Part shown: positions 20,879 through 30,454 of the stretch, piece after piece
Numbering within the stretch: the stretch's first letter is position 1
How the letters are laid out: every line of letters starts with the position of its first letter
Origin: Elusimicrobia bacterium HGW-Elusimicrobia-3
Lineage (GTDB): Bacteria; Elusimicrobiota; Elusimicrobia; Elusimicrobiales; UBA9959
NCBI GenBank assembly: GCA_002840355.1
Contig: PHAL01000002.1
Coordinates: 39,278-103,277 of the forward strand
DNA length: 64,000 bases
Direction of reading: 5' to 3'
The notes under the pieces: generated by a model
Seen by the model: the letters and a program-made list of their open reading frames with translations, nothing else
Database searches by the model: none
What the model was told of the DNA's origin: nothing
Translations under genes and position numbers: made by a program

Positions 20879-23008
20879 ATGGAAAATCTGGACGCTGAGA
20901 ATTTCGGCGCGCAATTGGACGCGTTGTTCGGGGGGAACTCTCCCCGGGCAGCGGTCGCGCCCAGGCCCGCGCAGGTCCCCGCGCCCCAGGCGCCGGCGCC
21001 CGCGGCCCCGGCCAGGGCGGCACTTCCGCCCGTCCCCGTCCCTAAACCTAAAGTATATACCGTGATCGTGGTGGACGATAATAAGGACTACCGCGACCTG
21101 GTCAGGCATTTGCTGAGCGTACACCACTTCAACGTGCTCGAGGCGGTGAACGGGGAAGAGGCGCTGCAGATGATCAACGCCAGCGTGCCGGACCTGGCGC
21201 TGGTGGATTTCAACATGCCCAAGATGAACGGCTACGAGCTGATACAGGAGGTGCGCAGCAATTACGAGCTCAAGAACATGCGCATCATCATGTTCACCGG
21301 CGCAGCCAACCGCCAGCACCTGAAGACGCTCAACATGAACATCTCCGACTTCCTGGACAAGCCGGTGCCCAACGCCAAGCTGCTGGAGAGCGTGAACCGT
21401 GCGCTGGGCATAGGCCAGAAGCCCGCGGCCCCGCCGCGCCGTCCCGCGGCGCCGGCCCCGGCCGCCGAGACGGTGGAGCCGCCGCCGCCAGGGGAGACGG
21501 GGCTGCAGATAGAGCGCTTCGGCCTGCCCGAGGAAGGTGAGGAACCGGCGGCCCCGCATTTCGAGCCGCCGCCCAGGCCGGTTTCGGTCGAGCTGCCGCC
21601 CGAGTCTGTCAGGCGGCCCGCGCCCGCGCCGGTCCCGGCCCCGGTGCAACTGCCGGAACCAGAGCCGGAGACGGCGGCCGAGCCGGAGGCTGAAGCGGTG
21701 CCCGAGCCGCAGGAACCGGAGGAAGTGGTGCCGGAGATGAACGAGGTCTTTACCCAGGAGGACGCGCAGGAGCTGGAGCTGATAGACGCCGACGCGGAGA
21801 AGAAGGAAGAGGCGACGGAAGTGGCGGGCATAGAGGCCCTGGAAAAGGATTCCCCGCTGATACAGATGGTCAACAAGATCCTCGTGCGGGCGGTGGAAAT
21901 GCGCGCCTCGGACATACACATGGAGCCGCAGGAGGACACGGTGGCCGTGCGCGTGCGCGTGGACGGCGTCCTGCGCCAGCTGACCACCCTGCCCATAACC
22001 ATACATCCCCGCGTGACCGCGCGCGTAAAGATCATGAGCAATTTGGTGATCACGGAGCGGCGCATACCGCAGGACGGCCAGTTCCGCGTCAACATCAAGG
22101 GCAACAAGATAGAGTTCCGCGTCAGCACGCTGCCCTGCATAAAGGGCGAGAAGATAGTGATGCGCGTGCTGGGCCAGAGCAAGCTGAATTCCGACCTGAG
22201 CAGCCTGGCACTGACGGAGCGCGAGCACCGCTGCGTGGAGGGGGCGCTGAAGAGCCCCCACGGGCTGATCCTCGTGACCGGCCCCACCGGCAGCGGCAAG
22301 ACCACCACGCTCTACACCATGATCAACGTGCTCAACAAGCCCGACGTGAATATCATGACGGCCGAGGACCCTGTGGAGTACGAGGTGCCCCACGTCAACC
22401 AGGTGAAGATCGTCCCCGCGGTGGGCCTTACGTTCGAGTCCACGCTGCGCGCCTTCCTGCGCCAGGACCCCGACATCATGCTGGTGGGCGAGATCCGCGA
22501 CCTGGAAACGGCGGAGATCTCCATCAAGGCCTCCATCACCGGCCACCTGGTCTTCTCCACGCTGCATACCAACAGCGCGCCGGCCACCGTGGTGCGCCTG
22601 ACGCATATGGGCGTGGCGCCTTTCCTGGTGGCGGCCAGCGTGAAGATGGTGATAGCCCAGCGGCTGGTGCGCACGCTGTGCCCGCATTGCAAGCGCCCTG
22701 GCCGGCTTTCCGAGGAGGACGCGCGCTTTCTGACCGACTCCGAAAAAGAAATGCTGAAAAAGGTCTGGCACGCCCCCGGCTGCCACCACTGCGGCCAGAG
22801 CGGTTACTCCGGCCGCAAAGCCCTGTTCGAGGTGATGCCGGTCGAGAGCTCGGCGATGCGCCAGCTCATCACCTCCAATTTCAACGTGGACATGCTCAGC
22901 GAACTCGCGGTAAAAGAGGGAATGACCACGCTGCGGCAGTCGGCCCTAACGGCGGTGGCGAACGGCAGCACCTCGATGGCGGAGGCGCTGAAGATAATGA
23001 TGGGGTAG
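20879..23008 (+). CDS. Receiver-domain-fused GspE/PilB-type secretion/pilus ATPase
   Basis: N-terminal REC (VIVVDDNKD...ALVDFNMPKMNG...DKPV), a Pro/Glu linker, then the GspE core: ASDIHMEP, Walker A GPTGSGKTT, Asp/His boxes, and the tetracysteine CPHC...CHHC. Confidence 0.9.
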   Translation: MENLDAENFGAQLDALFGGNSPRAAVAPRPAQVPAPQAPAPAAPARAALPPVPVPKPKVYTVIVVDDNKDYRDLVRHLLSVHHFNVLEAVNGEEALQMINASVPDLALVDFNMPKMNGYELIQEVRSNYELKNMRIIMFTGAANRQHLKTLNMNISDFLDKPVPNAKLLESVNRALGIGQKPAAPPRRPAAPAPAAETVEPPPPGETGLQIERFGLPEEGEEPAAPHFEPPPRPVSVELPPESVRRPAPAPVPAPVQLPEPEPETAAEPEAEAVPEPQEPEEVVPEMNEVFTQEDAQELELIDADAEKKEEATEVAGIEALEKDSPLIQMVNKILVRAVEMRASDIHMEPQEDTVAVRVRVDGVLRQLTTLPITIHPRVTARVKIMSNLVITERRIPQDGQFRVNIKGNKIEFRVSTLPCIKGEKIVMRVLGQSKLNSDLSSLALTEREHRCVEGALKSPHGLILVTGPTGSGKTTTLYTMINVLNKPDVNIMTAEDPVEYEVPHVNQVKIVPAVGLTFESTLRAFLRQDPDIMLVGEIRDLETAEISIKASITGHLVFSTLHTNSAPATVVRLTHMGVAPFLVAASVKMVIAQRLVRTLCPHCKRPGRLSEEDARFLTDSEKEMLKKVWHAPGCHHCGQSGYSGRKALFEVMPVESSAMRQLITSNFNVDMLSELAVKEGMTTLRQSALTAVANGSTSMAEALKIMMG

Positions 23009-23012
23009 AGTT

Positions 23013-25220
23013 ATGAACCCTATAGACCAGGATTATACGGGCGCTCAAAGGGACCTCGGGCAGGAGAGGTACGGGATCCCTTATGAAGAGCTTTGCGCCG
23101 AATTCCTGGCCGCGGCCTCCAGGGCGGCCAAGAGCGCGGCCCTGTATTCCCTCAGCCACCCGGTAGTGATGGAATCTCTGGGCCGGGCCTACGCCTCGCT
23201 GGCGGAGGTGCTGGAAGCCAGCGGCGGCGGAGAACTGTCCGTTTCCTTCTCCAACGACGCCTGGATGTTCAACGGGCGCGCCGTACCGGTGGCCGGGGGA
23301 GACCCGCACGGCCTTGACGGCATGCTCAAGGCCCACGGAGTGCGCGGCTTGATCTTCGACCCGGGGGTCAGGCCCTCGGAGGTGGCGGCCCTCTGCGAAT
23401 TCCTCGGCGTCTCGCCCAGGGGTCAGACGGCCGGTACTTTCATGGCTTTCATGTCGGGCAGGGGAGTTGCCCATATACGCTCGGAGGAAGTGCGCTATGT
23501 GAAAGAGAGCGGCTACGCGGGCGGCATGGGGGCGCCCCAGGCGGCAGCCGCGCAAACCCCCGCAGTAAAGCCCCGGCCGGCGGTACTCGATCCCGCCCCC
23601 AAGGTGAGTCCCCGGCCGGCGGCTCAATTTCCGGATATAGCGCCAGCCCCGGCGGTAAGGCCGGCCAGGGCGCCGCTACCCGCGGCACCGCCCCCGCAGG
23701 TGCCCTCGCCCGGCGGCGGCCCCGGTGACCCGGCGGGCCGCGGCGGTACCGGGCGTGGTCCCGGGGAAGGGCCTGGCTCCGGCGGCGGCCAGGGCAAAGG
23801 GCAGGGCGCCGGCCAAGGAGGAGGGCGCGGAGCCGGCCAGGGCGCGGGACAAGGCGGCGGCCGCGGTGAAGGCCGTGGAGAGGGGCGCGGTGAAGGCCAG
23901 GGGAGTGGCCAGGGCGCGGGGCAAGGCGGCGGCCGGGGAGAAGGCCAGGGGAGTGGCCAGGGCAACGGCCAGGGCGGAGGCGCCGAGGGCGGGGCCGCTG
24001 GAGCCAGCCTGGGCGCGCTGCTGACCACGCTGGTGGAATCAGCGGTGAAGGACCCCCGCGAGCGCGTGAAGATGTACGAGGACACGCTCAAGATGCTGCG
24101 CGAGGGCATGGACCGGCAGATAGATCAGGCCACAAAGGTGATGGCGGCTGAGAAGGAGGAGATACTCAATACCCGCAACCGCACCGAGACCGTGCTGTCG
24201 CACGTGGCCGAGGGCAAGGTGATAGTGGACAAGGACGGCAGGATACTGATGATGAACCCCGCCGCCGAGCAGATCTCCGGCCACAGGCTTTCCGAAGTGG
24301 TGGGCAGGCACGTCAGCGAACACTTGAACCCGGCCGAACACATGCTGACCATCTCCAGGGACATGGACCTCTCCGCCGGAAATCCCATTACCGGCGAGGT
24401 GAGCGTGGCCGGCGACGAGATGGTGAGCGGCGCGCTGCGGCGCTCCATGGCCCTGCTGGAGGACGACCAGGGCCGCGTGGTAGGCGCCTACGCGACGCTG
24501 CCCGACATGACCAAGTTCAAGGAAGCCCAGCGCCTGCAGGACGAGTTCCTCTCGCGCGTCACGCACGACCTGCAGTCCCCGCTCTCCTCCATCAGCGCGG
24601 CGCTGGAGATCCTCACCGAGAGCGCCGCCGCCAAGCTCAGTTCCGACGAGTCCAACTTCCTCACTATAAGCCTGCGCAACAGCCGCCGCCTGACGGAGAT
24701 GATACGCGGCATACTGGATTTCTCCAAGCTCAAGGCCGGCAAGATGCCGGTGCACCCGGAGCCTATGCCGCTGAGCCCTATCCTCAACGAGGCGGTGGAC
24801 AGCCTGCTGCCCTGGGCCAAGACCAAGGGCGTGACGCTGACGCTGCGCGTCTGCAAGCCCGACGTCACGGTGCTGGCCGATCACGGCCGCATAGTGCAGG
24901 TGGTGACCAATCTGGTTTCCAACGCCATCAAGTCCACGCCCCCCGGCGGCGAGGTGATAGTGGCCGCCGCGCGGGCGCTCACTCCGGAGCACAGCGCGCT
25001 GGTGGGCGTGCGCGACACCGGCCCCGGCATCAGCAAGGAGAACATGGCCAAGATCTTCGAGCGCTTCGTGCAGCTCGAGGAGAGCGGCCCCCGCGAAGGC
25101 GTGGGCCTGGGCCTTTCCATCGTTAAAGAATTCGTGGCGCAGCATAAAGGGCGCGTCTGGGCCGAGAGCCCGGAGGGACAGGGCGCCACTTTCTATTTCA
25201 CGCTGCCCATGGCCGCCTAG
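23013..25220 (+). CDS. Soluble sensor histidine kinase (N-domain, Gly/Gln/Arg repeat, PAS, HisKA, HATPase_c)
   Basis: H-box FLSRVTHDLQSPL, N/G boxes (NAIKST, DTGPGIS, GVGLGLSI), and a PAS-like region (VIVDKDGRILMMNPAAEQISG). No TM segment seen. Confidence 0.9.
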   Translation: MNPIDQDYTGAQRDLGQERYGIPYEELCAEFLAAASRAAKSAALYSLSHPVVMESLGRAYASLAEVLEASGGGELSVSFSNDAWMFNGRAVPVAGGDPHGLDGMLKAHGVRGLIFDPGVRPSEVAALCEFLGVSPRGQTAGTFMAFMSGRGVAHIRSEEVRYVKESGYAGGMGAPQAAAAQTPAVKPRPAVLDPAPKVSPRPAAQFPDIAPAPAVRPARAPLPAAPPPQVPSPGGGPGDPAGRGGTGRGPGEGPGSGGGQGKGQGAGQGGGRGAGQGAGQGGGRGEGRGEGRGEGQGSGQGAGQGGGRGEGQGSGQGNGQGGGAEGGAAGASLGALLTTLVESAVKDPRERVKMYEDTLKMLREGMDRQIDQATKVMAAEKEEILNTRNRTETVLSHVAEGKVIVDKDGRILMMNPAAEQISGHRLSEVVGRHVSEHLNPAEHMLTISRDMDLSAGNPITGEVSVAGDEMVSGALRRSMALLEDDQGRVVGAYATLPDMTKFKEAQRLQDEFLSRVTHDLQSPLSSISAALEILTESAAAKLSSDESNFLTISLRNSRRLTEMIRGILDFSKLKAGKMPVHPEPMPLSPILNEAVDSLLPWAKTKGVTLTLRVCKPDVTVLADHGRIVQVVTNLVSNAIKSTPPGGEVIVAAARALTPEHSALVGVRDTGPGISKENMAKIFERFVQLEESGPREGVGLGLSIVKEFVAQHKGRVWAESPEGQGATFYFTLPMAA
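23740..23990 (+). repeat. Coding low-complexity Gly/Gln/Arg/Glu repeat with a 48-nt period near its end
   Basis: GAAGGCCAGGGGAGTGGCCAGGGC occurs twice, 48 nt apart. The translation is GQGKGQGAGQGGGRGAGQGAGQGGGRGEGRGEGRGEGQGSGQGAGQGGGRGEGQGSGQGNGQGGG. Confidence 0.8.
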
Positions 25221-25247
25221 CCTGCCGGCAAATGCTAAAATTTAGCC

Positions 25248-26156
25248 ATGAAACTCCTGGCGGACCAGTTCCTGCTGCACCTGCGCGCGCAGCGGAACTT
25301 CGCGCGCAATACCATCAAGGCCTACCAGTTCGACCTGGGCGAGTTCCTCGCCTACGCGGCCGCCTCCAGGGCCGTGGAACCCAAGGCGCTGGACCGCCTG
25401 CTGATGCGCGGCTATATCGCCCATATCAGCGAACGGAAAGTTTCCCGCAATACGCTGCTGCGCAAGATCTCGGCGGTGCGCTCTTTCCTGCGCTACCTGC
25501 AGGAGACCGGGCAACTGGAGACCGACCCCTTCGACCTGATCACCATCCCCAAGAAGGAGAAACGGCTGCCGCGTTTTCTCACCGAGGGGGAGGTGGGCAA
25601 GCTGCAGGACCTCAACAGGCCCGAAGAGGTTAACGCCAGGGAGAAGGGCTACTATTTCGCCCTGCGCGACTTCGCCCTGTTCGAGCTGGTCTACTCCAGC
25701 GGCCTGCGCCGCTCCGAGGCGGCCGGCCTCAACATCGGCGACGTGGACTTTTTTTCCGGCTTCGCCCGCGTGATGGGCAAAGGCTCCAAGGAACGCCTGG
25801 TGCCGGTGGGGGACAGGGCGCTGGAAGCGCTCAAGGCCTACCTGGAGACCCGCCCGCGCCCGCTGGCCCACGGCCTGCCGCTCTTCCTCAATCACAAGCA
25901 GACCCGCCTGAGCGGGGCTGGCATAGCCCTGATCTTCAAAAAGATGGCCAAGCGCGCCAGGTTCGCCAGGCCGATGAACCCGCATTCGGTGCGCCACTCT
26001 TTCGCCACCCACCTGCTCGACCGCGGCTGCGACCTGAAGTCGGTGCAGGAGATGCTTGGGCACAAGAACCTGCAGACCACCGAGATCTATACCCACGTTT
26101 CACTGGAGCGCCTCAAAGAGGTGTACGAGAAGGCGCACCCGAGGTCCAAGAAATAA
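25248..26156 (+). CDS. Tyrosine recombinase XerC/XerD family
   Basis: SAM-like N-domain, catalytic residues in GLRRSE, HSVRHSFATHLL and TTEIYTHVS. Confidence 0.9.
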   Translation: MKLLADQFLLHLRAQRNFARNTIKAYQFDLGEFLAYAAASRAVEPKALDRLLMRGYIAHISERKVSRNTLLRKISAVRSFLRYLQETGQLETDPFDLITIPKKEKRLPRFLTEGEVGKLQDLNRPEEVNAREKGYYFALRDFALFELVYSSGLRRSEAAGLNIGDVDFFSGFARVMGKGSKERLVPVGDRALEALKAYLETRPRPLAHGLPLFLNHKQTRLSGAGIALIFKKMAKRARFARPMNPHSVRHSFATHLLDRGCDLKSVQEMLGHKNLQTTEIYTHVSLERLKEVYEKAHPRSKK

Positions 26157-27070
26157 TGGCCTACGACCCCGCGCTCGACATGGCCCCCGAACTGCTGGCC
26201 CGGGCCGCCCGCGCAGCCGGCGCCGGCCCCGATCTGGCGCAGGGCGGCGGCGGCAATGTCTCGGTCAAGACCGGCGCCGAGCGCATGCTGGTCAAAGCCT
26301 CCGGCTCGCGGCTGGGCGACCTGACCCCGGCCCGCGGCTGGGCGCTGGTAAACTACGGCAACATTAAGCGGCGCATAGCCGCCGGGCCCGGCGGCGACGC
26401 CGAATTTTCCGATTACATCGTCTCACAGGCGCTGCCGGTGAAAGGGATGCCGCCGGCCCGGCCCTCCATAGAGACCGGCTTTCATTCCCTGCTCAATACC
26501 GTGGTCATCCACACCCATTCGGTATACGCCAATGTTCTGAACATGAGCGAGGAGGGACACAAACTCGGCAGGGAGCTGTTCCCCAACGCTGAATTTATCC
26601 CGTACAAGGCGCCCGGCGCGCAGCTGTGCGCCGCCATAAGCGAACGGGCCCTGCCCGCCGGGCCGCAGGTGTTCTTCCTGGCCAACCATGGCCTGGTAGC
26701 GGCCCACGCCGGGGTAGAAGGCGCCCTGGAACTCAACGCCGGGGTGAACGAGAAGATCAAATCCGGGCTGGGGCTGCCGCCCTTCCGGCCGGCCGGGGGG
26801 GATTCCGGCCTATCGCCGGCCAACGCGGCGCTGCTGGCCAGGTACGGCAAAGCCTTCCTGCTGTCCAAGGTGCTTTCCCCGGACCAGGCCCTGTATTGCG
26901 GCCCGGAGGCCCTGGACGGGCGCTGCGGCGAGGCAGAGAACGAAGTGCTGGCAGCCCTGTTCTACATACTGGGCTGCATAGAGGGGCTGGGCCTTACCCC
27001 CAGGTTCCTGACCGGCCAGGAAACCGCCTATTTCGAATCCATGAAGGGCGGCCGCTATAGCCGGAAATAG
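26156..27070 (+). CDS. Class II aldolase/adducin-like domain protein
   Basis: GGGGNVSVK...MLVKASGS...HTHS pattern. The start overlaps the xer stop by 1 nt. Confidence 0.55.
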   Translation: MAYDPALDMAPELLARAARAAGAGPDLAQGGGGNVSVKTGAERMLVKASGSRLGDLTPARGWALVNYGNIKRRIAAGPGGDAEFSDYIVSQALPVKGMPPARPSIETGFHSLLNTVVIHTHSVYANVLNMSEEGHKLGRELFPNAEFIPYKAPGAQLCAAISERALPAGPQVFFLANHGLVAAHAGVEGALELNAGVNEKIKSGLGLPPFRPAGGDSGLSPANAALLARYGKAFLLSKVLSPDQALYCGPEALDGRCGEAENEVLAALFYILGCIEGLGLTPRFLTGQETAYFESMKGGRYSRK

Positions 27071-27108: not shown

Positions 27109-27137
27109 TTGCGCAATCGGGTTCCGTCTGCTATAAC
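27109..27137 (+). promoter_or_regulatory. Putative sigma70 promoter
   Basis: TTGCGC, 17-nt spacer, TATAAC, preceded by TCTGC. The same TCTGCTAWAA context appears at 54606 and 48869. Confidence 0.45.
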
Positions 27138-27143
27138 ATACTA

Positions 27144-27310
27144 ACGATAATAGCAAACCCGGACCTGAAGGCCGGGGGCGCAAAGCCGCGGGGCAAAGGG
27201 ACGAGGGTCCACACGCCGGACGGGCTGCCGAAAGTGAGAGCGTGTATTTTGCCGGCCAGGCTACCGAATGAGGAAGTCCATTAATGGGCTGTTCCTGTTC
27301 GGTTTTTTTT
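27144..27310 (+). promoter_or_regulatory. Structured 5' leader ending in an intrinsic terminator (riboswitch/attenuator candidate)
   Basis: Hairpin CCCGGACC-TGAA-GGCCGGG (27158-76) followed by GGCGCAAAGCC. Nested stems GGCAAA/TTTGCC (27192-97/27248-53) and ACACGC/GCGTGT (27211-16/27240-45). A terminator follows. Confidence 0.5.
27264..27310 (+). terminator. Intrinsic terminator located inside the leader, 20 nt before the start codon
   Basis: CCGAA..AGGAAGTCCA-TTAA-TGGGC..TTCCT.TTCGG hairpin (27264-27302) followed by T8 (27303-27310). Confidence 0.6.
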
Positions 27311-27330
27311 ACTTTCAGCGAGGAGGCATT

Positions 27331-29502
27331 ATGTACGCAGCGGGTAAGGCGATAATGGCGACGGCGGCAATGATGCTGCTGCCGTTCTGCGCCTTCGCCC
27401 AGTTCGAGCCCGCGGCTTCCCTGCCGCAGCCCCTGCTGTCGCATACGGCCGTCATCATGGGCGGCCGTATTTACGTTTCCGGCGGCGTCAGCGACCGGGG
27501 CAGCGTGACCGGCGCCGGATACATAAATAACGTCTACTACTGCGCCACGATGAACGAAGACGGCACGCTGGGGGCCTGGCAGCCCGCCAGCGCTATGCCG
27601 GAGCTGCTCGGCCTTGGCCTGCACGCTTCGACGGTGCACAACGAGCGCGTCTACATCCTGGGCGGCATCAACTACTCCGGCCAGCGCAACCTCGTCTACT
27701 ATTCCGGGGCCAAAGCCGACGGCACGCTGAGCGGCTGGATGCGCGGCACCACGCTGCCGCAGCGCCTCTCCGCCCATTCCGCGGCCGTCTACAATAACAG
27801 GATTTACGTGACCGGCGGCATAGCCCGCAACATCGGCCCCGTGAACCTGGTCTACTCCGCGCCCATCAACGCGGACGGTTCCATGGGGGCCTGGCGCGAC
27901 GAAACAGCGCTGCCCTCCACGCTGTTCGGCCACCGCACCTTCGCCAAGGCCGGCAAACTCTACTCCCTCGGCGGTTTTACCGACGCCGGGCTGTACGGGC
28001 CCGGCGGCCTGCCGCCCGCCGGGGTGTCCCGCGGGGTCTACGCGGCGGCCATCAACGCCGACGGTACCCTGGGCGCCTGGACGGCCCAGCCGCAGCTGCC
28101 CTCCAGCCTGGCCTTCTACGGCATGGTGGCCACCGACAAGAGCGTCTACGTGCTGGGCGGTTTCGACGGCGGCGTTACCAACGCGGTCTACTTCTCGCCA
28201 ATCGCCGCCGACGGCGCGCTGGGCGCCTGGCAGGCGCTGCACGCGCTGCCGCAGAACCTGGTGTCGCTGGCGGCCGTGTCCACCCAGGACTACCTGTACT
28301 CCATCGGCGGCGGCCTTTCCTATATAGACGACCCGGTGGACGCCATCTATTTCTCCAGGCTGCGCTCCGAGCCCAAGGCTTTCGTGAAGATGACCCCTTC
28401 CTCCATCAATAAGGACGCCAACGGCAAGTGGGTTACCGTCGTCATCGGCCTGCCCGAGGCCGACGCGGCCGACGTGCTGGCCGAAACCGTCAGGATCTCC
28501 GCCGTGAACGGCGAGCCCGTGACCCCGATCGCGCCCGATCCCAAGTTCGTCGCCAAGGTGCAGAGCGGCGACACCGCCGACTTCGACGGCCTGGCCGGCG
28601 TGACCTACCTGATGCTCAAGTTCATGCGCGCCGACGTGGCGGCTATCATTCCCGACGGCGAGTTCTCGCTGAAGCTGACCGGCCAGCTGGCCGACGGCCG
28701 GAATTTCTCCGGAGAGAGCATGAACCGGGCCCTCTCCAGCAAAAAGACCTTTACCGCCCTGCTCGCCAAGCGCGCGGGCGAGCGCCGCGGCGCCGGCGGC
28801 CTCAAGGTGGACATCCCCGCCGGAGCCTTCAAGGGCAACCCCGAGCTGCTGCTCACCGCCGCTCCCGAGGAAGCCGAAGAGGTGGGCGAGGAGGAGAAAG
28901 GCAAGCGCGCCAAAGGGCTCAAGAATCGCTCGCTGGCGGCCGTTTCCGAAGCTTTCGAATTCGGCCCCCACGGCTCGGTCTTCGAGAAGCCGGTAACCAT
29001 CTCTCTGCCGTACCGCCCCGAGCTGCTGCCCCCGGGCGCCGACGAGAACGCCCTGCAGGTGGCCTACTGGAACGCGGCGGCCGGCGACTGGGAGATACTC
29101 CCCTCGGCAGTCTCCAAAGCCGACAAGTCCGTCAGCGCCCAGACCGGGCACTTCTCTACCTACCAGGTAATGGCCGGCGCCGCCCCCGCGGCAGCCCCCG
29201 CCGCCCCGGCCCCCGTCGCGGCGCTGGGCGAGGTCTATGTTTTCCCGAATCCCGCCAAGGGCGGTGCGGTGCCGGTGCTGCGCGTGGAAGCAGCGGCCGG
29301 CGAGCGGCTGCAGGTAAAGGTGTTCTCCGCCTCGGGCCGTCTGGCCTATGAGGGGGCGGTGAGCGGGGCCCCTGCCGCCGGCGGCGCTTATGAGCTGGAA
29401 CTGCGCGGCTCTTTCCCCAGCGGCGTGTACTATTACCAGGCGGAGGTGCAGAGCGGCGGCGGCAAGCTCAAGCGCTCGGGAAAGTTCGCGGTGGTACGGT
29501 AA
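27331..29502 (+). CDS. Secreted Kelch/beta-propeller repeat protein with a T9SS-type C-terminal sorting domain
   Basis: GGAGG lies 7 nt upstream of the ATG at 27331. Signal peptide is MYAAGKAIMATAAMMLLPFCAFA. There are repeated RIYV(S/T)GG...DGTLGAW units. The C-terminus VYVFPNPAKGG...GVYYYQAEV...GKFAVVR resembles a T9SS CTD. Confidence 0.8.
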   Translation: MYAAGKAIMATAAMMLLPFCAFAQFEPAASLPQPLLSHTAVIMGGRIYVSGGVSDRGSVTGAGYINNVYYCATMNEDGTLGAWQPASAMPELLGLGLHASTVHNERVYILGGINYSGQRNLVYYSGAKADGTLSGWMRGTTLPQRLSAHSAAVYNNRIYVTGGIARNIGPVNLVYSAPINADGSMGAWRDETALPSTLFGHRTFAKAGKLYSLGGFTDAGLYGPGGLPPAGVSRGVYAAAINADGTLGAWTAQPQLPSSLAFYGMVATDKSVYVLGGFDGGVTNAVYFSPIAADGALGAWQALHALPQNLVSLAAVSTQDYLYSIGGGLSYIDDPVDAIYFSRLRSEPKAFVKMTPSSINKDANGKWVTVVIGLPEADAADVLAETVRISAVNGEPVTPIAPDPKFVAKVQSGDTADFDGLAGVTYLMLKFMRADVAAIIPDGEFSLKLTGQLADGRNFSGESMNRALSSKKTFTALLAKRAGERRGAGGLKVDIPAGAFKGNPELLLTAAPEEAEEVGEEEKGKRAKGLKNRSLAAVSEAFEFGPHGSVFEKPVTISLPYRPELLPPGADENALQVAYWNAAAGDWEILPSAVSKADKSVSAQTGHFSTYQVMAGAAPAAAPAAPAPVAALGEVYVFPNPAKGGAVPVLRVEAAAGERLQVKVFSASGRLAYEGAVSGAPAAGGAYELELRGSFPSGVYYYQAEVQSGGGKLKRSGKFAVVR

Positions 29503-29506
29503 GATT

Positions 29507-30454
29507 ATGAAATCCCTGGACGGCGGGACAAAAAAGGACTTCGCGAACGGCCTGATCTACTGGCTGTCGCGGCCCTATGCGCTGGCGCTGGCGGCCGCTT
29601 TCCTGCTCGTGCCCTCGGTGCAGCTCTCGCGGGCGCTGGAGAGCGGCGCGGACTTCCTGAATATCGGCGCGGGCGCGCGCGCCTCGGCCATGGGCTCGGC
29701 CTATACCGCGCTGGCCGACGACAGCAACGCCATCTATTACAATCCCGGCGGCCTGGCCTACGCCCGCCGCGAGTTCTCCGTGATGCACTCGGCCTGGGCG
29801 CTGGGCGGCAGCTACGATTTCGCCTCGGCGGCCTTCCCCGCCGGCAAGTTCAAGGCGGCGGTCTCGGTGACCCGCCTGGACCACGGCGGGCTGGAAGGGC
29901 GCGGCGCGGGCGGCGAGCGCTCGGGCGGCTTCTCGGCCTCCGACAAGGCGCTGGGCCTGGCCCTGGCGCGCGGCATGGGTTCTTACAGCGTGGGCGTCGG
30001 CGCCAAGCTGCTGTCGAGCAGCATAGCCGGCTACCAGGCTTCGGCCGTGGCTTTCGATCTGGGCGCGATGAAGAAGATGAGCGGGGCCCCGGTGACCCTG
30101 GGCCTGGCGGTGCGCAATCTCGGCTCAGGCCTGAAGTTCGTGGACCGCCGCGAGAACCTGCCGCTGAGCCTCAACGCCGGCGCCTCCTACGCGGTGCTGC
30201 CCTCGGTGAACCTCTCGGCGGAGGTTGGCAGGCTGGTGCACGACCGCCGGACCACCTTCTCGGTGGGCACCGAGTACGGCCTGGGCGGCATGCTGGCCCT
30301 GCGCGGCGGCTACGCCGCGGCCTCGGGCGAGGGCCTGGGCGCGATGACCGGCGGCGTGGGCTTCAACGCCGGCTCGTTCCGCATGGATTATTCTTTCGCG
30401 CCGTTCGGCGGGTTCGACACCACCCGCCGGTTCAGCCTGTCGATGGGCTTCTAG
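29507..30454 (+). CDS. PorV/PorQ-like outer-membrane beta-barrel
   Basis: GAGARASAMGSAYTALADDSNAIYYNPGGLAY is the N-terminal signature I associate with PorV/PorQ-type barrels. It ends in an aromatic residue (SLSMGF). Confidence 0.55.
   Translation: MKSLDGGTKKDFANGLIYWLSRPYALALAAAFLLVPSVQLSRALESGADFLNIGAGARASAMGSAYTALADDSNAIYYNPGGLAYARREFSVMHSAWALGGSYDFASAAFPAGKFKAAVSVTRLDHGGLEGRGAGGERSGGFSASDKALGLALARGMGSYSVGVGAKLLSSSIAGYQASAVAFDLGAMKKMSGAPVTLGLAVRNLGSGLKFVDRRENLPLSLNAGASYAVLPSVNLSAEVGRLVHDRRTTFSVGTEYGLGGMLALRGGYAAASGEGLGAMTGGVGFNAGSFRMDYSFAPFGGFDTTRRFSLSMGF

What the first reader, a model, noticed from the sequence alone, without database searches (positions are those of the whole stretch)
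27109..27330. Promoter, structured leader and intrinsic terminator directly upstream of a secreted cargo gene: riboswitch/attenuator candidate with a GEMM-I-like 5' half
The promoter TTGCGC-17-TATAAC (27109-37) would give a ~185-nt leader. The leader ends in a long hairpin (27264-27302) followed by T8. The GGAGG RBS and the ATG at 27331 lie only 11-20 nt beyond it. No room is left for another promoter, so the gene can only be expressed by read-through of this terminator. That is the classic architecture of conditional termination. The upstream part contains AGCAAA-CCCGGACC-TGAA-GGCCGGG-GGCGCAAAGCC. As I recall it, this parallels the 5' half of the c-di-GMP-I (GEMM-I) core (GGCAAA-stem-GNRA-stem-GACGCAAAGCC). 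Nested stems GGCAAA/TTTGCC and ACACGC/GCGTGT follow. I could not align the 3' half to GEMM-I, so it may be a variant or an unrelated aptamer. GEMM-I elements are known to precede secreted or adhesion genes, which fits the Kelch-repeat cargo downstream.
Basis: partly seen in the sequence, partly recalled or inferred. Interest (0 to 1): 0.6.

Follow-up and report, generated by a model that had tools for sequence, protein, structure and literature searches.

The report
Cyclic-dinucleotide (GEMM-I) riboswitch, A20 variant
The flagged leader is a complete, conserved member of the well-known GEMM-I cyclic-dinucleotide riboswitch class in an Elusimicrobia genome, carrying the single-base change (A instead of G at position 20) that in Geobacter retunes the sensor from c-di-GMP to cGAMP, and it controls a terminator in front of a two-gene secretion-related operon.

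Summary
Rfam aligns the whole c-di-GMP-I (GEMM-I) model to 27142-27232 (50.9 bits, gathering score 35), so the 3' half fits as well.

The promoter, aptamer, terminator, U-run and ribosome-binding site are conserved upstream of orthologs down to 43% protein identity, all in Elusimicrobia MAGs or unnamed metagenome contigs. The downstream operon is a secreted Kelch beta-propeller plus a PorV/PorQ-like outer-membrane protein.

Two details go beyond routine annotation:
- **Position 20:** the ligand-specificity base is A (27152). This is the GEMM-Ib signature for 3',3'-cGAMP or dual binding. It holds throughout an inner clade of orthologous leaders, while outer lineages and one nested lineage have G.
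- **Second copy:** the aptamer's P2 3' strand plus CCGAA (27215-32) is repeated at 27251-68. This copy can displace the original by strand exchange and runs directly into the terminator.

With the aptamer enforced the terminator still folds, so ligand most likely promotes termination (OFF). That polarity is inferred: in the window's own clade the alternative helix only abuts the terminator stem.

Verdict: new member of a known kind. The ligand (cGAMP or c-di-GMP) and the polarity need experiments.

The parts
27109..27114 (+). -35-like hexamer TTGCGC
   Evidence: Sequence. TTGnnn is conserved at the same distance in all orthologous leaders (TTGAAA, TTGCCG, TTGACA).
27129..27137 (+). Extended -10: TGC + TATAAC. 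The predicted transcription start is about 27143-27145 (inferred).
   Evidence: TGcTATAAC/TATACC/TATACT is nearly invariant across leaders whose flanks diverge. The consensus scan missed it because of the final C.
27142..27232 (+). GEMM-I (c-di-GMP-I class) aptamer, full length
   Evidence: Rfam RF01051, 50.9 bits against a gathering score of 35, model positions 1-87 of 87. Own covariance model 99.7 bits. 92% of cells paired and 16 of 22 pairs with changes on both sides across 42 distinct sequences.
27152..27152 (+). Position-20 nucleotide (Vc2 numbering; A14 of Gs1761). It is A here and G in canonical c-di-GMP sensors.
   Evidence: Model position 11 in the cmscan alignment. Role of G20/A20: PMC6140456. 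A in the inner clade; G in L007, L008, L009, L022, L023 and L068.
27158..27176 (+). First hairpin (CCCGG..C-UGAA-G.CCGGG), closed by G27153-C27154 pairing with G27180-C27181
   Evidence: cmscan structure line. Covariation in helices 1 and 2. The loop is UGAA here and GAAA in most relatives.
27182..27182 (+). First A of CGC-AAA-GCC, equivalent to the intercalating A47 of Vc2 (A41 of Gs1761)
   Evidence: Invariant CGCAAAGC in all alignments. Assignment from Vc2 numbering recalled from memory and the J2/3 description in PMC6274999.
27184..27194 (+). 'P' strand: 5' strand of the second helix (AGCC-G-CGG-GGC). It pairs either with the A-copy (aptamer) or with the T-copy (alternative fold).
   Evidence: cmscan, constrained folds, register test.
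27195..27214 (+). Internal loop AAAG (27195-98, tetraloop-receptor half and proposed toehold), distal hairpin GGAC-GAGG-GUCC (27199-27210), then ACAC
   Evidence: cmscan. AAAG pairs with UUUU 27247-50 in the alternative fold.
27215..27232 (+). 'A-copy': aptamer 3' strand GCCGGACGGGCU + G + CCGAA. C27228 is the equivalent of ligand-pairing C92/C75.
   Evidence: cmscan. Pattern GCCGGNCNGGCTRCCGAA occurs only here and at 27251-68 in 64 kb, against 0.04 expected.
27233..27250 (+). Linker. GCGUGU 27241-46 pairs with ACACGC 27211-16, and UUUU 27247-50 pairs with AAAG 27195-98, in the alternative fold.
   Evidence: MFE of transcripts of 125 nt or longer.
27251..27268 (+). 'T-copy': near-duplicate of the aptamer 3' strand (GCCGGCCAGGCU + A + CCGAA). 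Its 5' 12 nt can replace the A-copy on the P strand. Its ACCGAA is the base of the terminator.
   Evidence: Present in all 10 protein-derived leaders. P:T pairs at 9.7 of 10 positions in 38 distinct leaders. The covariance model chose the T-copy as the 3' strand in at least 6 loci.
27263..27310 (+). Intrinsic terminator: stem-loop 27263/4-27302/3 (ACCGAAUGAGGAAGUCC-AUUA-AUGGGCUGUUCCUGUUCGGU) and U8 at 27303-27310
   Evidence: Folds (-17.6 kcal/mol). A terminator plus U-run is found in all 10 protein-derived leaders. The closing pair R:Y covaries, G-C in 6 and A-U in 5.
27322..27333 (+). Shine-Dalgarno GGAGG (27322-26) and start codon ATG (27331-33)
   Evidence: Sequence. The signal peptide starts here. 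Ortholog N-termini align.
27331..29502 (+). Regulated gene 1: secreted Kelch beta-propeller protein (723 aa) with a weak T9SS type-A sorting-domain-like C-terminus
   Evidence: Pfam Kelch families. TIGR04183 18.3 bits, below its cutoff of 23. An ortholog is named 'T9SS type A sorting domain-containing protein' by NCBI.
29504..30454 (+). Regulated gene 2: PorV/PorQ-family outer-membrane protein (316 aa). Its start codon follows 1 nt after the stop codon of gene 1.
   Evidence: NF033709 143.5 bits against a cutoff of 90. A ~315-aa gene follows the Kelch gene in L004-L009.

Best explanation
A sigma-70-type promoter (27109-27137) starts a ~185-nt leader at about 27144. Its first ~90 nt fold into a GEMM-I class cyclic-dinucleotide aptamer (27142-27232).

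The pocket keeps the intercalating A (27182) and the C that pairs with a ligand guanine (27228). It has A rather than G at position 20 (27152). The expected ligand is therefore a cyclic dinucleotide with at least one G. 3',3'-cGAMP is the best structural fit, and c-di-GMP probably also binds.

Downstream lies a near-copy (27251-68) of the aptamer's 3' strand, followed directly by a strong intrinsic terminator (27263-27310), then the RBS and the start of a two-gene operon.

Proposed logic (inferred):
1. The aptamer forms first.
2. Without ligand, the linker UUUU (27247-50) seizes the unpaired AAAG loop (27195-98) as a toehold. The copy then displaces the original 3' strand from the P strand (27184-94). 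This destroys the aptamer and ties up the RNA immediately 5' of, or in relatives inside, the terminator stem, which favours read-through.
3. With ligand, the aptamer is locked, the copy stays free, the terminator forms unhindered and transcription stops. This is an OFF switch.

Sub-confidences:
- GEMM-I riboswitch with promoter and terminator: about 0.95.
- Binds cGAMP in vitro: about 0.7.
- cGAMP is the physiological signal: about 0.35.
- OFF polarity: about 0.55.
For: Class membership:
- Rfam full-length hit above the gathering score in the window and in all 9 orthologous loci.
- Covariation: 92% of cells paired, 16 of 22 pairs changed on both sides, 0 of 500 shuffles reach the score, and slid controls are far lower.

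Promoter: conserved -35, 17-nt spacer and extended -10.

A20:
- cmscan alignment.
- The J1/2 string G-A-U-A-A-U-A and J1/3 G-C match the Gs1761 layout G8, A9, A11, A12, A14 and G74-C75.
- G20A is the cGAMP determinant, and such RNAs often bind both ligands.

Platform:
- The second copy is beyond chance and present in every orthologous leader.
- P:T pairs at 97% of positions in 38 leaders, against 92% when partners are swapped between leaders. The six positions my search pattern did not fix covary.
- P:T is the MFE once transcribed: -44.6 against -40.7 for the aptamer and -39.4 for A:T.
- With the aptamer enforced the terminator still forms in all six leaders tested.
- In relatives the terminator stem overlaps the copy by 3-15 nt, so the P:T helix and the terminator are mutually exclusive there.
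- Strand exchange with a toehold is the standard riboswitch mechanism (PMC10907184).
Against: - In the window's own clade the P:T helix ends exactly where the terminator stem begins (0-1 nt overlap). Forbidding the terminator base reveals no competing pairing, at a cost of 10-17 kcal/mol. At secondary-structure level the terminator is therefore unopposed in both states, and the OFF call rests on homology with overlapping relatives plus an unproven steric or junction argument.
- All characterised GEMM-Ib (A20) riboswitches are ON switches.
- The covariation signal for P:T is modest because the strands are highly conserved and quasi-palindromic, so A:T can also form.
- The direct-path barrier estimate for aptamer-to-P:T refolding is high, 13-15 kcal/mol. 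This figure is heuristic and inflated by unrelated helices.
- No cGAMP synthase is in evidence. The window has no GGDEF gene. Sister lineages regulate the same operon with G20 aptamers, which fits plain c-di-GMP signalling with A20 acting only as an affinity-tuning change.
Confidence: 0.85

Rival explanations
1. Same aptamer, but the physiological ligand is c-di-GMP. A20 is an affinity-tuning or near-neutral substitution, and the lineage has no cGAMP signalling.
For: - A20 RNAs (Vc2 G20A, Gs1761, Cbe 1-2) bind c-di-GMP through a protonated adenine.
- Orthologous leaders in outer lineages and one nested lineage use G20 for the same operon.
- A GGDEF protein is encoded next to the operon in L006.
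- The window has no Hypr-GGDEF or CD-NTase.
Against: - A20 is fixed across a deep clade, from 51% to 100% protein identity. That argues for selection rather than drift.
- The J1/2 layout matches the cGAMP-selective Gs1761.
- In Geobacter, A20 gives up to ~1200-fold preference for cGAMP.
Confidence: 0.5
2. ON switch: ligand binding increases read-through, as in Geobacter pilM and Gs1761. For example, the freed aptamer 3' strand would help build the terminating structure in the absence of ligand.
For: - All studied A20 riboswitches are ON.
- The terminator 3' strand can also pair with the aptamer 3' strand: RNAduplex -21.8 against -16.2 kcal/mol for the canonical partner in the window, and similar in L006 and L003.
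Against: - The terminator hairpin 27263-27303 does not involve the aptamer and forms with the aptamer enforced, so ligand cannot prevent it by the pilM mechanism.
- A:H complementarity is weak in L004, L005 and L008.
- In relatives with overlap the logic is unambiguously OFF.
Confidence: 0.2
3. In the window's clade the terminator has become uncoupled from the aptamer and terminates constitutively or leakily. The aptamer/anti-aptamer exchange would act on something else, such as RNA stability or translation.
For: The alternative helix and the terminator do not overlap in this clade. A 6-nt complement of the P1 3' strand (ACUUUC, 27311-16) lies between the U-run and the RBS.
Against: ACUUUC is conserved only in relatives above 90% identity. 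The full architecture, including RCCGAA at the terminator base, is conserved across the clade. An unregulated -17.6 kcal/mol hairpin plus U8 directly before the RBS would nearly silence the operon.
Confidence: 0.15

Closest known systems
c-di-GMP-I (GEMM-I) riboswitch, Rfam RF01051, e.g. V. cholerae Vc2
   Same: Full-length match to the family model. Same two-hairpin, three-way-junction architecture, invariant CGCAAAGC junction, C92-equivalent, and 5'-UTR location before surface or secretion genes.
   Different: Position 20 is A, not G. In the window's lineage the tetraloop is UGAA and the receptor half is GGC-AAAG rather than GAAA and CUAAG.
GEMM-Ib 3',3'-cGAMP riboswitches of Geobacter (Gs1761, Gm0970, pilM)
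   Same: A at position 20, with the same J1/2 and J1/3 layout. Transcriptional control through an intrinsic terminator.
   Different: - Phylum is Elusimicrobia, not Desulfuromonadota.
- The terminator is separate from the aptamer. In pilM it overlaps and sequesters C75, so the predicted polarity here is the opposite (OFF).
- Selectivity is untested, and no cognate synthase has been identified.
C. difficile Cd1 c-di-GMP-I OFF switch
   Same: Aptamer and terminator can coexist. Ligand-free RNA adopts a competing fold that destroys the pocket. A long expression platform gives a time window for binding.
   Different: In Cd1 the antiterminator pairs the aptamer's 3' strand with the switching strand (A:T). 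Here the favoured competitor pairs the aptamer's 5' P2 strand with a mimic of the 3' strand (P:T). A:T is possible but about 5 kcal/mol worse.
Bispecific A20 GEMM-I variants (e.g. Clostridium beijerinckii Cbe 1-2)
   Same: Natural A20 outside Geobacter that binds both cGAMP and c-di-GMP. This is the most conservative expectation for the present RNA.
   Different: Different phylum and gene context. Binding is not measured here.

Membership tests
c-di-GMP-I / GEMM-I (RF01051) | Covariance-model score at or above the curated gathering score, full length | tested here: met
   50.9 bits against 35, model positions 1-87 of 87. Orthologs score 39-61 bits.
c-di-GMP-I / GEMM-I (RF01051) | Two hairpins joined at a junction, supported by compensatory changes | tested here: met
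   92.1% of cells paired, 16 of 22 pairs with changes on both sides, covariation 0.364 against 0.155 in shuffles and at most 0.13 when slid. The alignment was fitted to the model, which biases these numbers upward.
c-di-GMP-I / GEMM-I (RF01051) | Pocket nucleotides A47 and C92 (Vc2 numbering) | tested here: met
   A27182 lies in the invariant CGCAAAGC and C27228 in the invariant GCUGCCGAA.
c-di-GMP-I / GEMM-I (RF01051) | G at position 20, which recognises the second guanine of c-di-GMP | tested here: not met
   A27152. This defines the GEMM-Ib subclass, not exclusion from the structural family.
c-di-GMP-I / GEMM-I (RF01051) | GNRA tetraloop docking into a receptor in the other hairpin | tested here: inconclusive
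   The window has UGAA and GGC-AAAG...ACACG. Close relatives have GAAA with CUAAAG...UAUACG. Docking cannot be tested in silico here.
c-di-GMP-I / GEMM-I (RF01051) | Binds a cyclic dinucleotide | not testable with these tools
   Needs in-line probing, ITC or gel shift.
GEMM-Ib (3',3'-cGAMP subclass) | A at position 20 with C92 retained | tested here: met
   A27152 and C27228. Determinant per PMC6140456.
GEMM-Ib (3',3'-cGAMP subclass) | J1/2 contact residues as in Gs1761 (G8, A9, A11, A12, A14) | tested here: met
   G27146, A27147, U, A27149, A27150, U, A27152 compared with the residue list in PMC6274999.
GEMM-Ib (3',3'-cGAMP subclass) | Selectivity for cGAMP over c-di-GMP | not testable with these tools
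   A20 alone gives anything from bispecific to ~1200-fold selective.
GEMM-Ib (3',3'-cGAMP subclass) | Cognate cGAMP synthase (Hypr GGDEF or DncV-like) in the same genome | tested here: inconclusive
   No GGDEF motif in the 64-kb window. The GGDEF neighbouring L006 is atypical (THR for NRR) and its position-348 equivalent is not Ser.
pilM-type ON platform | Terminator stem uses the aptamer's 3' strand, so the aptamer and the terminator are mutually exclusive | tested here: not met
   The terminator (27263-27303) lies 30 nt beyond the aptamer and forms with the aptamer enforced.
Cd1-type OFF platform | Aptamer and terminator compatible, with a ligand-free competitor fold that disrupts the pocket | tested here: met
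   The competitor differs: P:T is favoured over the Cd1-like A:T.

The most novel reading that the evidence does not exclude
A clade of Elusimicrobia switched an ancestral c-di-GMP riboswitch to 3',3'-cGAMP sensing by G20A, with one lineage switching back. It would then use cGAMP as a housekeeping second messenger to repress, through an OFF-type strand-exchange platform, a T9SS-like cargo plus PorV/PorQ operon. This would extend riboswitch-based cGAMP signalling beyond Geobacter and its relatives, with the opposite regulatory polarity.
Probability: 0.25. Interest if true: 0.6.

Novelty: new member of a known kind. Interest (0 to 1): 0.35.

Why it matters
The element itself is textbook and would be picked up by any Rfam-based annotation. 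Three things add value.

1. It is an A20 (GEMM-Ib-type) aptamer in Elusimicrobia, a largely uncultured phylum. I found no paper combining Elusimicrobia, riboswitch and c-di-GMP in the searchable library.
2. Orthologous leaders in front of the same operon carry either G20 or A20. This is a natural series for asking whether the single base really switches the ligand, and a pointer to look for a cGAMP synthase in these genomes.
3. The platform, in which a downstream mimic of the aptamer's 3' strand competes for its 5' partner, recurs in unrelated GEMM-I leaders from many metagenomes. It is wired differently from the two GEMM-I platforms studied in detail (Cd1 and pilM).

The regulated genes, a Kelch cargo with a T9SS-like tail and a PorV/PorQ homolog, tie cyclic-dinucleotide signalling to surface-protein export in this phylum.

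Tried and rejected
- **Geobacter origin:** my first guess from the A20 signature. Rejected, because every ortholog that carries a name is from Elusimicrobia.
- **Consensus promoter scan:** found nothing. This was overruled by phylogenetic conservation.
- **A GCAAA-less variant in L009-type leaders:** suspected, then withdrawn. The covariance model places G20-GC-ACA further upstream, with a large insertion in the first hairpin.
- **A conventional antiterminator overlapping the window's terminator:** I searched with constrained folds, by forbidding the terminator base, and with RNAduplex of all upstream RNA against both terminator strands. None was found.
- **ACUUUC (27311-16) pairing with the P1 3' strand as a translational element:** not conserved beyond relatives above 90% identity.
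- **RNAalifold on full leaders:** failed to recover the aptamer and returned A:T pairing instead, which exposed the quasi-palindromic nature of the strands.
- **Plain MFE paths for non-orthologous leaders:** mostly noisy, with only L089 clean.
- **Findpath barrier:** 13-15 kcal/mol and uninformative, because unrelated helices must be broken first.
- **GGDEF/EAL motif scan of the window:** no credible cyclase.
- **Kellenberger 2015, Nelson 2015 and Ren 2015:** not held in the library, so statements about them come through later papers that cite them.
- **Metagenome pattern hits:** about half were Ala/Glu/Lys-rich coding repeats and were discarded.

Full report
**1. Observation**

- TTGCGC 27109-14, a 17-nt spacer, TATAAC 27132-37.
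- The string AGCAAA-CCCGGACC-TGAA-GGCCGGG-GGCGCAAAGCC at 27152-87.
- A hairpin at 27264-27302 followed by T8 at 27303-10.
- GGAGG 27322-26 and ATG 27331.
- An in-frame ATG at 27268 inside the hairpin.

The hairpin is the dominant local structure, about -17.6 kcal/mol. The generic promoter scan reported nothing, but only because its rule requires T at the last -10 position.

**2. What it is**

A scan of the whole window against all 4227 Rfam families gives one match above a gathering score. It is RF01051 (c-di-GMP-I, GEMM-I) at 27142-27232, 50.9 bits against 35, covering model positions 1-87 of 87.

The downstream ORF starts at 27331. That start gives a signal peptide. The 27268 ATG is not conserved, since L001 has AATAAG there.

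The protein is a Kelch beta-propeller with a weak T9SS type-A sorting-domain-like tail. One nucleotide after its stop codon begins a PorV/PorQ-family outer-membrane protein (143.5 bits, cutoff 90). The next gene is on the other strand, so the riboswitch precedes a two-gene unit.

**3. Conservation**

Orthologs of the Kelch protein were found only in Elusimicrobia MAGs and unnamed metagenome contigs. I fetched nine orthologous loci, 92% to 43% identical at protein level. All carry an RF01051 hit of 39-61 bits, 100-250 nt upstream of the start. All also have an intrinsic terminator with a U-run between the aptamer and the start codon.

A covariance model built from the Rfam-derived structure recovered the aptamer in 48 leaders. 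On that alignment:
- 92.1% of cells form standard pairs.
- 16 of 22 pairs show changes on both sides.
- No shuffle out of 500 reaches the observed covariation score.
- Slid controls are far lower.

The alignment is fitted to the model, so these numbers lean upward.

The promoter is also conserved: cTTGnnn, 17 nt, TGcTATAAC/TATACC/TATACT, sitting 8-9 nt before CGATAA, with divergent flanks. That is a -35 plus an extended -10, and it places the likely start at about 27143-27145. The RNA would then begin essentially at the aptamer.

**4. The specificity position**

In the cmscan alignment the unpaired base immediately 5' of the first pair is A27152. This is model position 11, G20 of Vc2 and A14 of Gs1761.

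The literature held here states three relevant points:
- G20 recognises one guanine of c-di-GMP.
- In cGAMP-binding GEMM-Ib riboswitches it is replaced by A.
- The Vc2 G20A mutant and several natural A20 RNAs bind both ligands, using a protonated adenine for c-di-GMP (PMC6140456). Some Geobacter examples are about 1200-fold selective (PMC6456294).

The window's junction string G-A-U-A-A-U-A and its G-C before P1 match the Gs1761 contact residues G8, A9, A11, A12, A14 and G74-C75 (PMC6274999). C92 and A47 equivalents are retained.

Structurally this is therefore an A20 (GEMM-Ib-type) aptamer. It should bind 3',3'-cGAMP, but selectivity cannot be derived from sequence.

**5. Evolution of position 20**

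Mapped on a rough neighbour-joining tree of the downstream proteins (no bootstrap), the states are:
- Outer lineages (L007, L008, L009, L023): G20.
- The whole inner clade, 51-100% identical to the window's protein: A20.
- One nested pair (L022, L068): G20 again, with a 1-nt insertion.

Every unrelated GEMM-I leader from the metagenome scan that could be read at this position has G20. The simplest history is G to A once, with one reversion.

This fits either a ligand switch or affinity tuning of a c-di-GMP sensor. The window has no GGDEF gene. The GGDEF next to the operon in L006 is atypical and not Hypr-like. Whole genomes were out of reach, so the physiological ligand stays open.

**6. Expression platform**

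The aptamer's 3' strand plus CCGAA (GCCGGACGGGCUGCCGAA, 27215-32) is repeated 19 nt downstream as GCCGGCCAGGCUACCGAA (27251-68). The pattern occurs only at these two places in 64 kb, against 0.04 expected. All ten protein-derived leaders have such a second copy.

A metagenome scan for aptamer core, 3' strand and second copy returned about 40 genuine GEMM-I leaders besides coding-repeat false positives. Many were upstream of unrelated genes.

Evidence that the copy pairs with the 5' strand of the second helix (P, 27184-94):
- In 38 distinct leaders it pairs in register at 9.7 of 10 positions, against 9.2 when partners are swapped between leaders.
- The six positions not fixed by my pattern covary, for example P GUC with GAU/GAC and P AGC with GCU.
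- The covariance model itself chose the copy as the 3' strand in several loci.

Folding growing transcripts gives a consistent order. The aptamer is the MFE until the copy is made. Then the P:copy helix takes over by 3-6 kcal/mol, extended by the linker pairing with the receptor loop (UUUU 27247-50 with AAAG 27195-98). In the window the values are -44.6 against -40.7 kcal/mol.

Because the strands are quasi-palindromic, the two copies can also pair with each other, as in the Cd1 antiterminator. That fold is about 5 kcal/mol worse.

**7. Polarity**

With the Rfam pairs enforced, the terminator forms unhindered in all six leaders tested. Ligand therefore cannot act as in the Geobacter pilM ON switch, whose terminator consumes the aptamer's 3' strand (PMC9262584).

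In many relatives the terminator stem is built from the second copy itself, with 6-15 nt of overlap, and 3 nt in L003, L007, L023 and L097. There the P:copy helix and the terminator are mutually exclusive, and the logic is a classical strand-exchange OFF switch (L089 path; general scheme in PMC10907184).

In the window's own clade the two helices only abut, with 0-1 nt of overlap. The R of RCCGAA closes the terminator and covaries with its partner. No other competitor for the terminator exists at secondary-structure level.

I therefore infer OFF at about 0.55 for three reasons:
- Homology with the overlapping relatives.
- The ligand-bound state is clearly terminator-competent.
- The strict conservation of RCCGAA in the copy suggests that the alternative fold rebuilds the junction and engages those bases.

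The last step is not shown.

**8. Comparison and verdict**

This is a member of the GEMM-I structural family. It fails only the G20 criterion and meets the sequence criteria of the GEMM-Ib subclass. Selectivity and a cognate synthase are untested.

Its platform resembles Cd1, in that the aptamer and terminator are compatible and a competing fold exists. It uses a different competitor (P with a mimic of A, rather than A with T), and it differs from pilM.

Novelty is a new member of a known kind, with modest extra interest from three points: the A20/G20 polymorphism among orthologous leaders in Elusimicrobia, the recurrent 'second copy' platform, and the link to a T9SS-like cargo plus PorV/PorQ operon.

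Noticed in passing
window 27331-30454: The regulated unit is a conserved gene pair. The first gene is a secreted Kelch beta-propeller with a sub-threshold T9SS type-A sorting domain. The second is a PorV/PorQ-family outer-membrane protein whose start codon follows 1 nt after the first gene's stop codon. The pair recurs in L004-L009.
   Followed up: partly
window 27166-27169 and 27192-27198 (also L001, L002, L044, L077, L101, L109): In the window's closest lineage the hairpin tetraloop is UGAA instead of GAAA, and the receptor half reads GGC-AAAG instead of GGCUAAAG. Both partners of the tetraloop-receptor contact changed together.
   Followed up: no
window 20879-27070: Upstream on the same strand lie a PilB/T2SSE-type ATPase fused to a receiver domain, a PAS histidine kinase, a XerC/D-like tyrosine recombinase and a class II aldolase. 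The kinase, recombinase and aldolase recur in the same order in L004; the ATPase position falls outside that locus.
   Followed up: no
L006 1-954 (- strand): A GAF-GGDEF protein two genes upstream of the riboswitch operon has LTGLYTHRAF where canonical cyclases have LTGLxNRRxF. It may be degenerate or have altered specificity.
   Followed up: partly
L007 2776-2894, L023, L051; L009 2703-2837, L017, L026, L029, L070, L091, L102: These GEMM-I aptamers carry large insertions (41 nt, or branched) in the first hairpin. Rfam scores drop to 39-42 bits, but position 20 and the core are intact.
   Followed up: partly
L030, L047, L082; L050, L053, L063, L106, L107; L089; L056; L065; L020: The same platform, a second copy of the P2 3' strand serving as the terminator 5' strand, occurs in unrelated G20 GEMM-I leaders. 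These sit upstream of ~540-aa proteins (L030, L047, L082), ~490-aa secreted proteins, a prepilin-like protein and others. It is a widespread GEMM-I design, not an Elusimicrobia peculiarity.
   Followed up: partly
window 27184-27194, 27215-27226, 27251-27262: The three interacting strands are all quasi-palindromic variants of GCCGGnCnGGC, so P:A, P:T and A:T helices are all possible. RNAalifold prefers A:T, while single-sequence MFE prefers P:T.
   Followed up: yes
window 27286-27302 versus 27213-27229: The terminator 3' strand is also strongly complementary to the aptamer's own 3' strand: RNAduplex -21.8 kcal/mol against -16.2 for its hairpin partner. L006 and L003 are similar, while L004, L005 and L008 are weak. 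Significance unknown.
   Followed up: partly
L006 7051-7402 (-); L007 6467-6538; L009 6706-6777: A tmRNA gene and two tRNA genes lie a few kb downstream of the operon in different orthologous loci.
   Followed up: no
L012, L024, L034, L037-L043 and others: The DNA pattern used for the metagenome scan also matches Ala/Glu/Lys-rich coding repeats (AEAERKAAEEA...). About half of the 100 hits were such false positives.
   Followed up: yes
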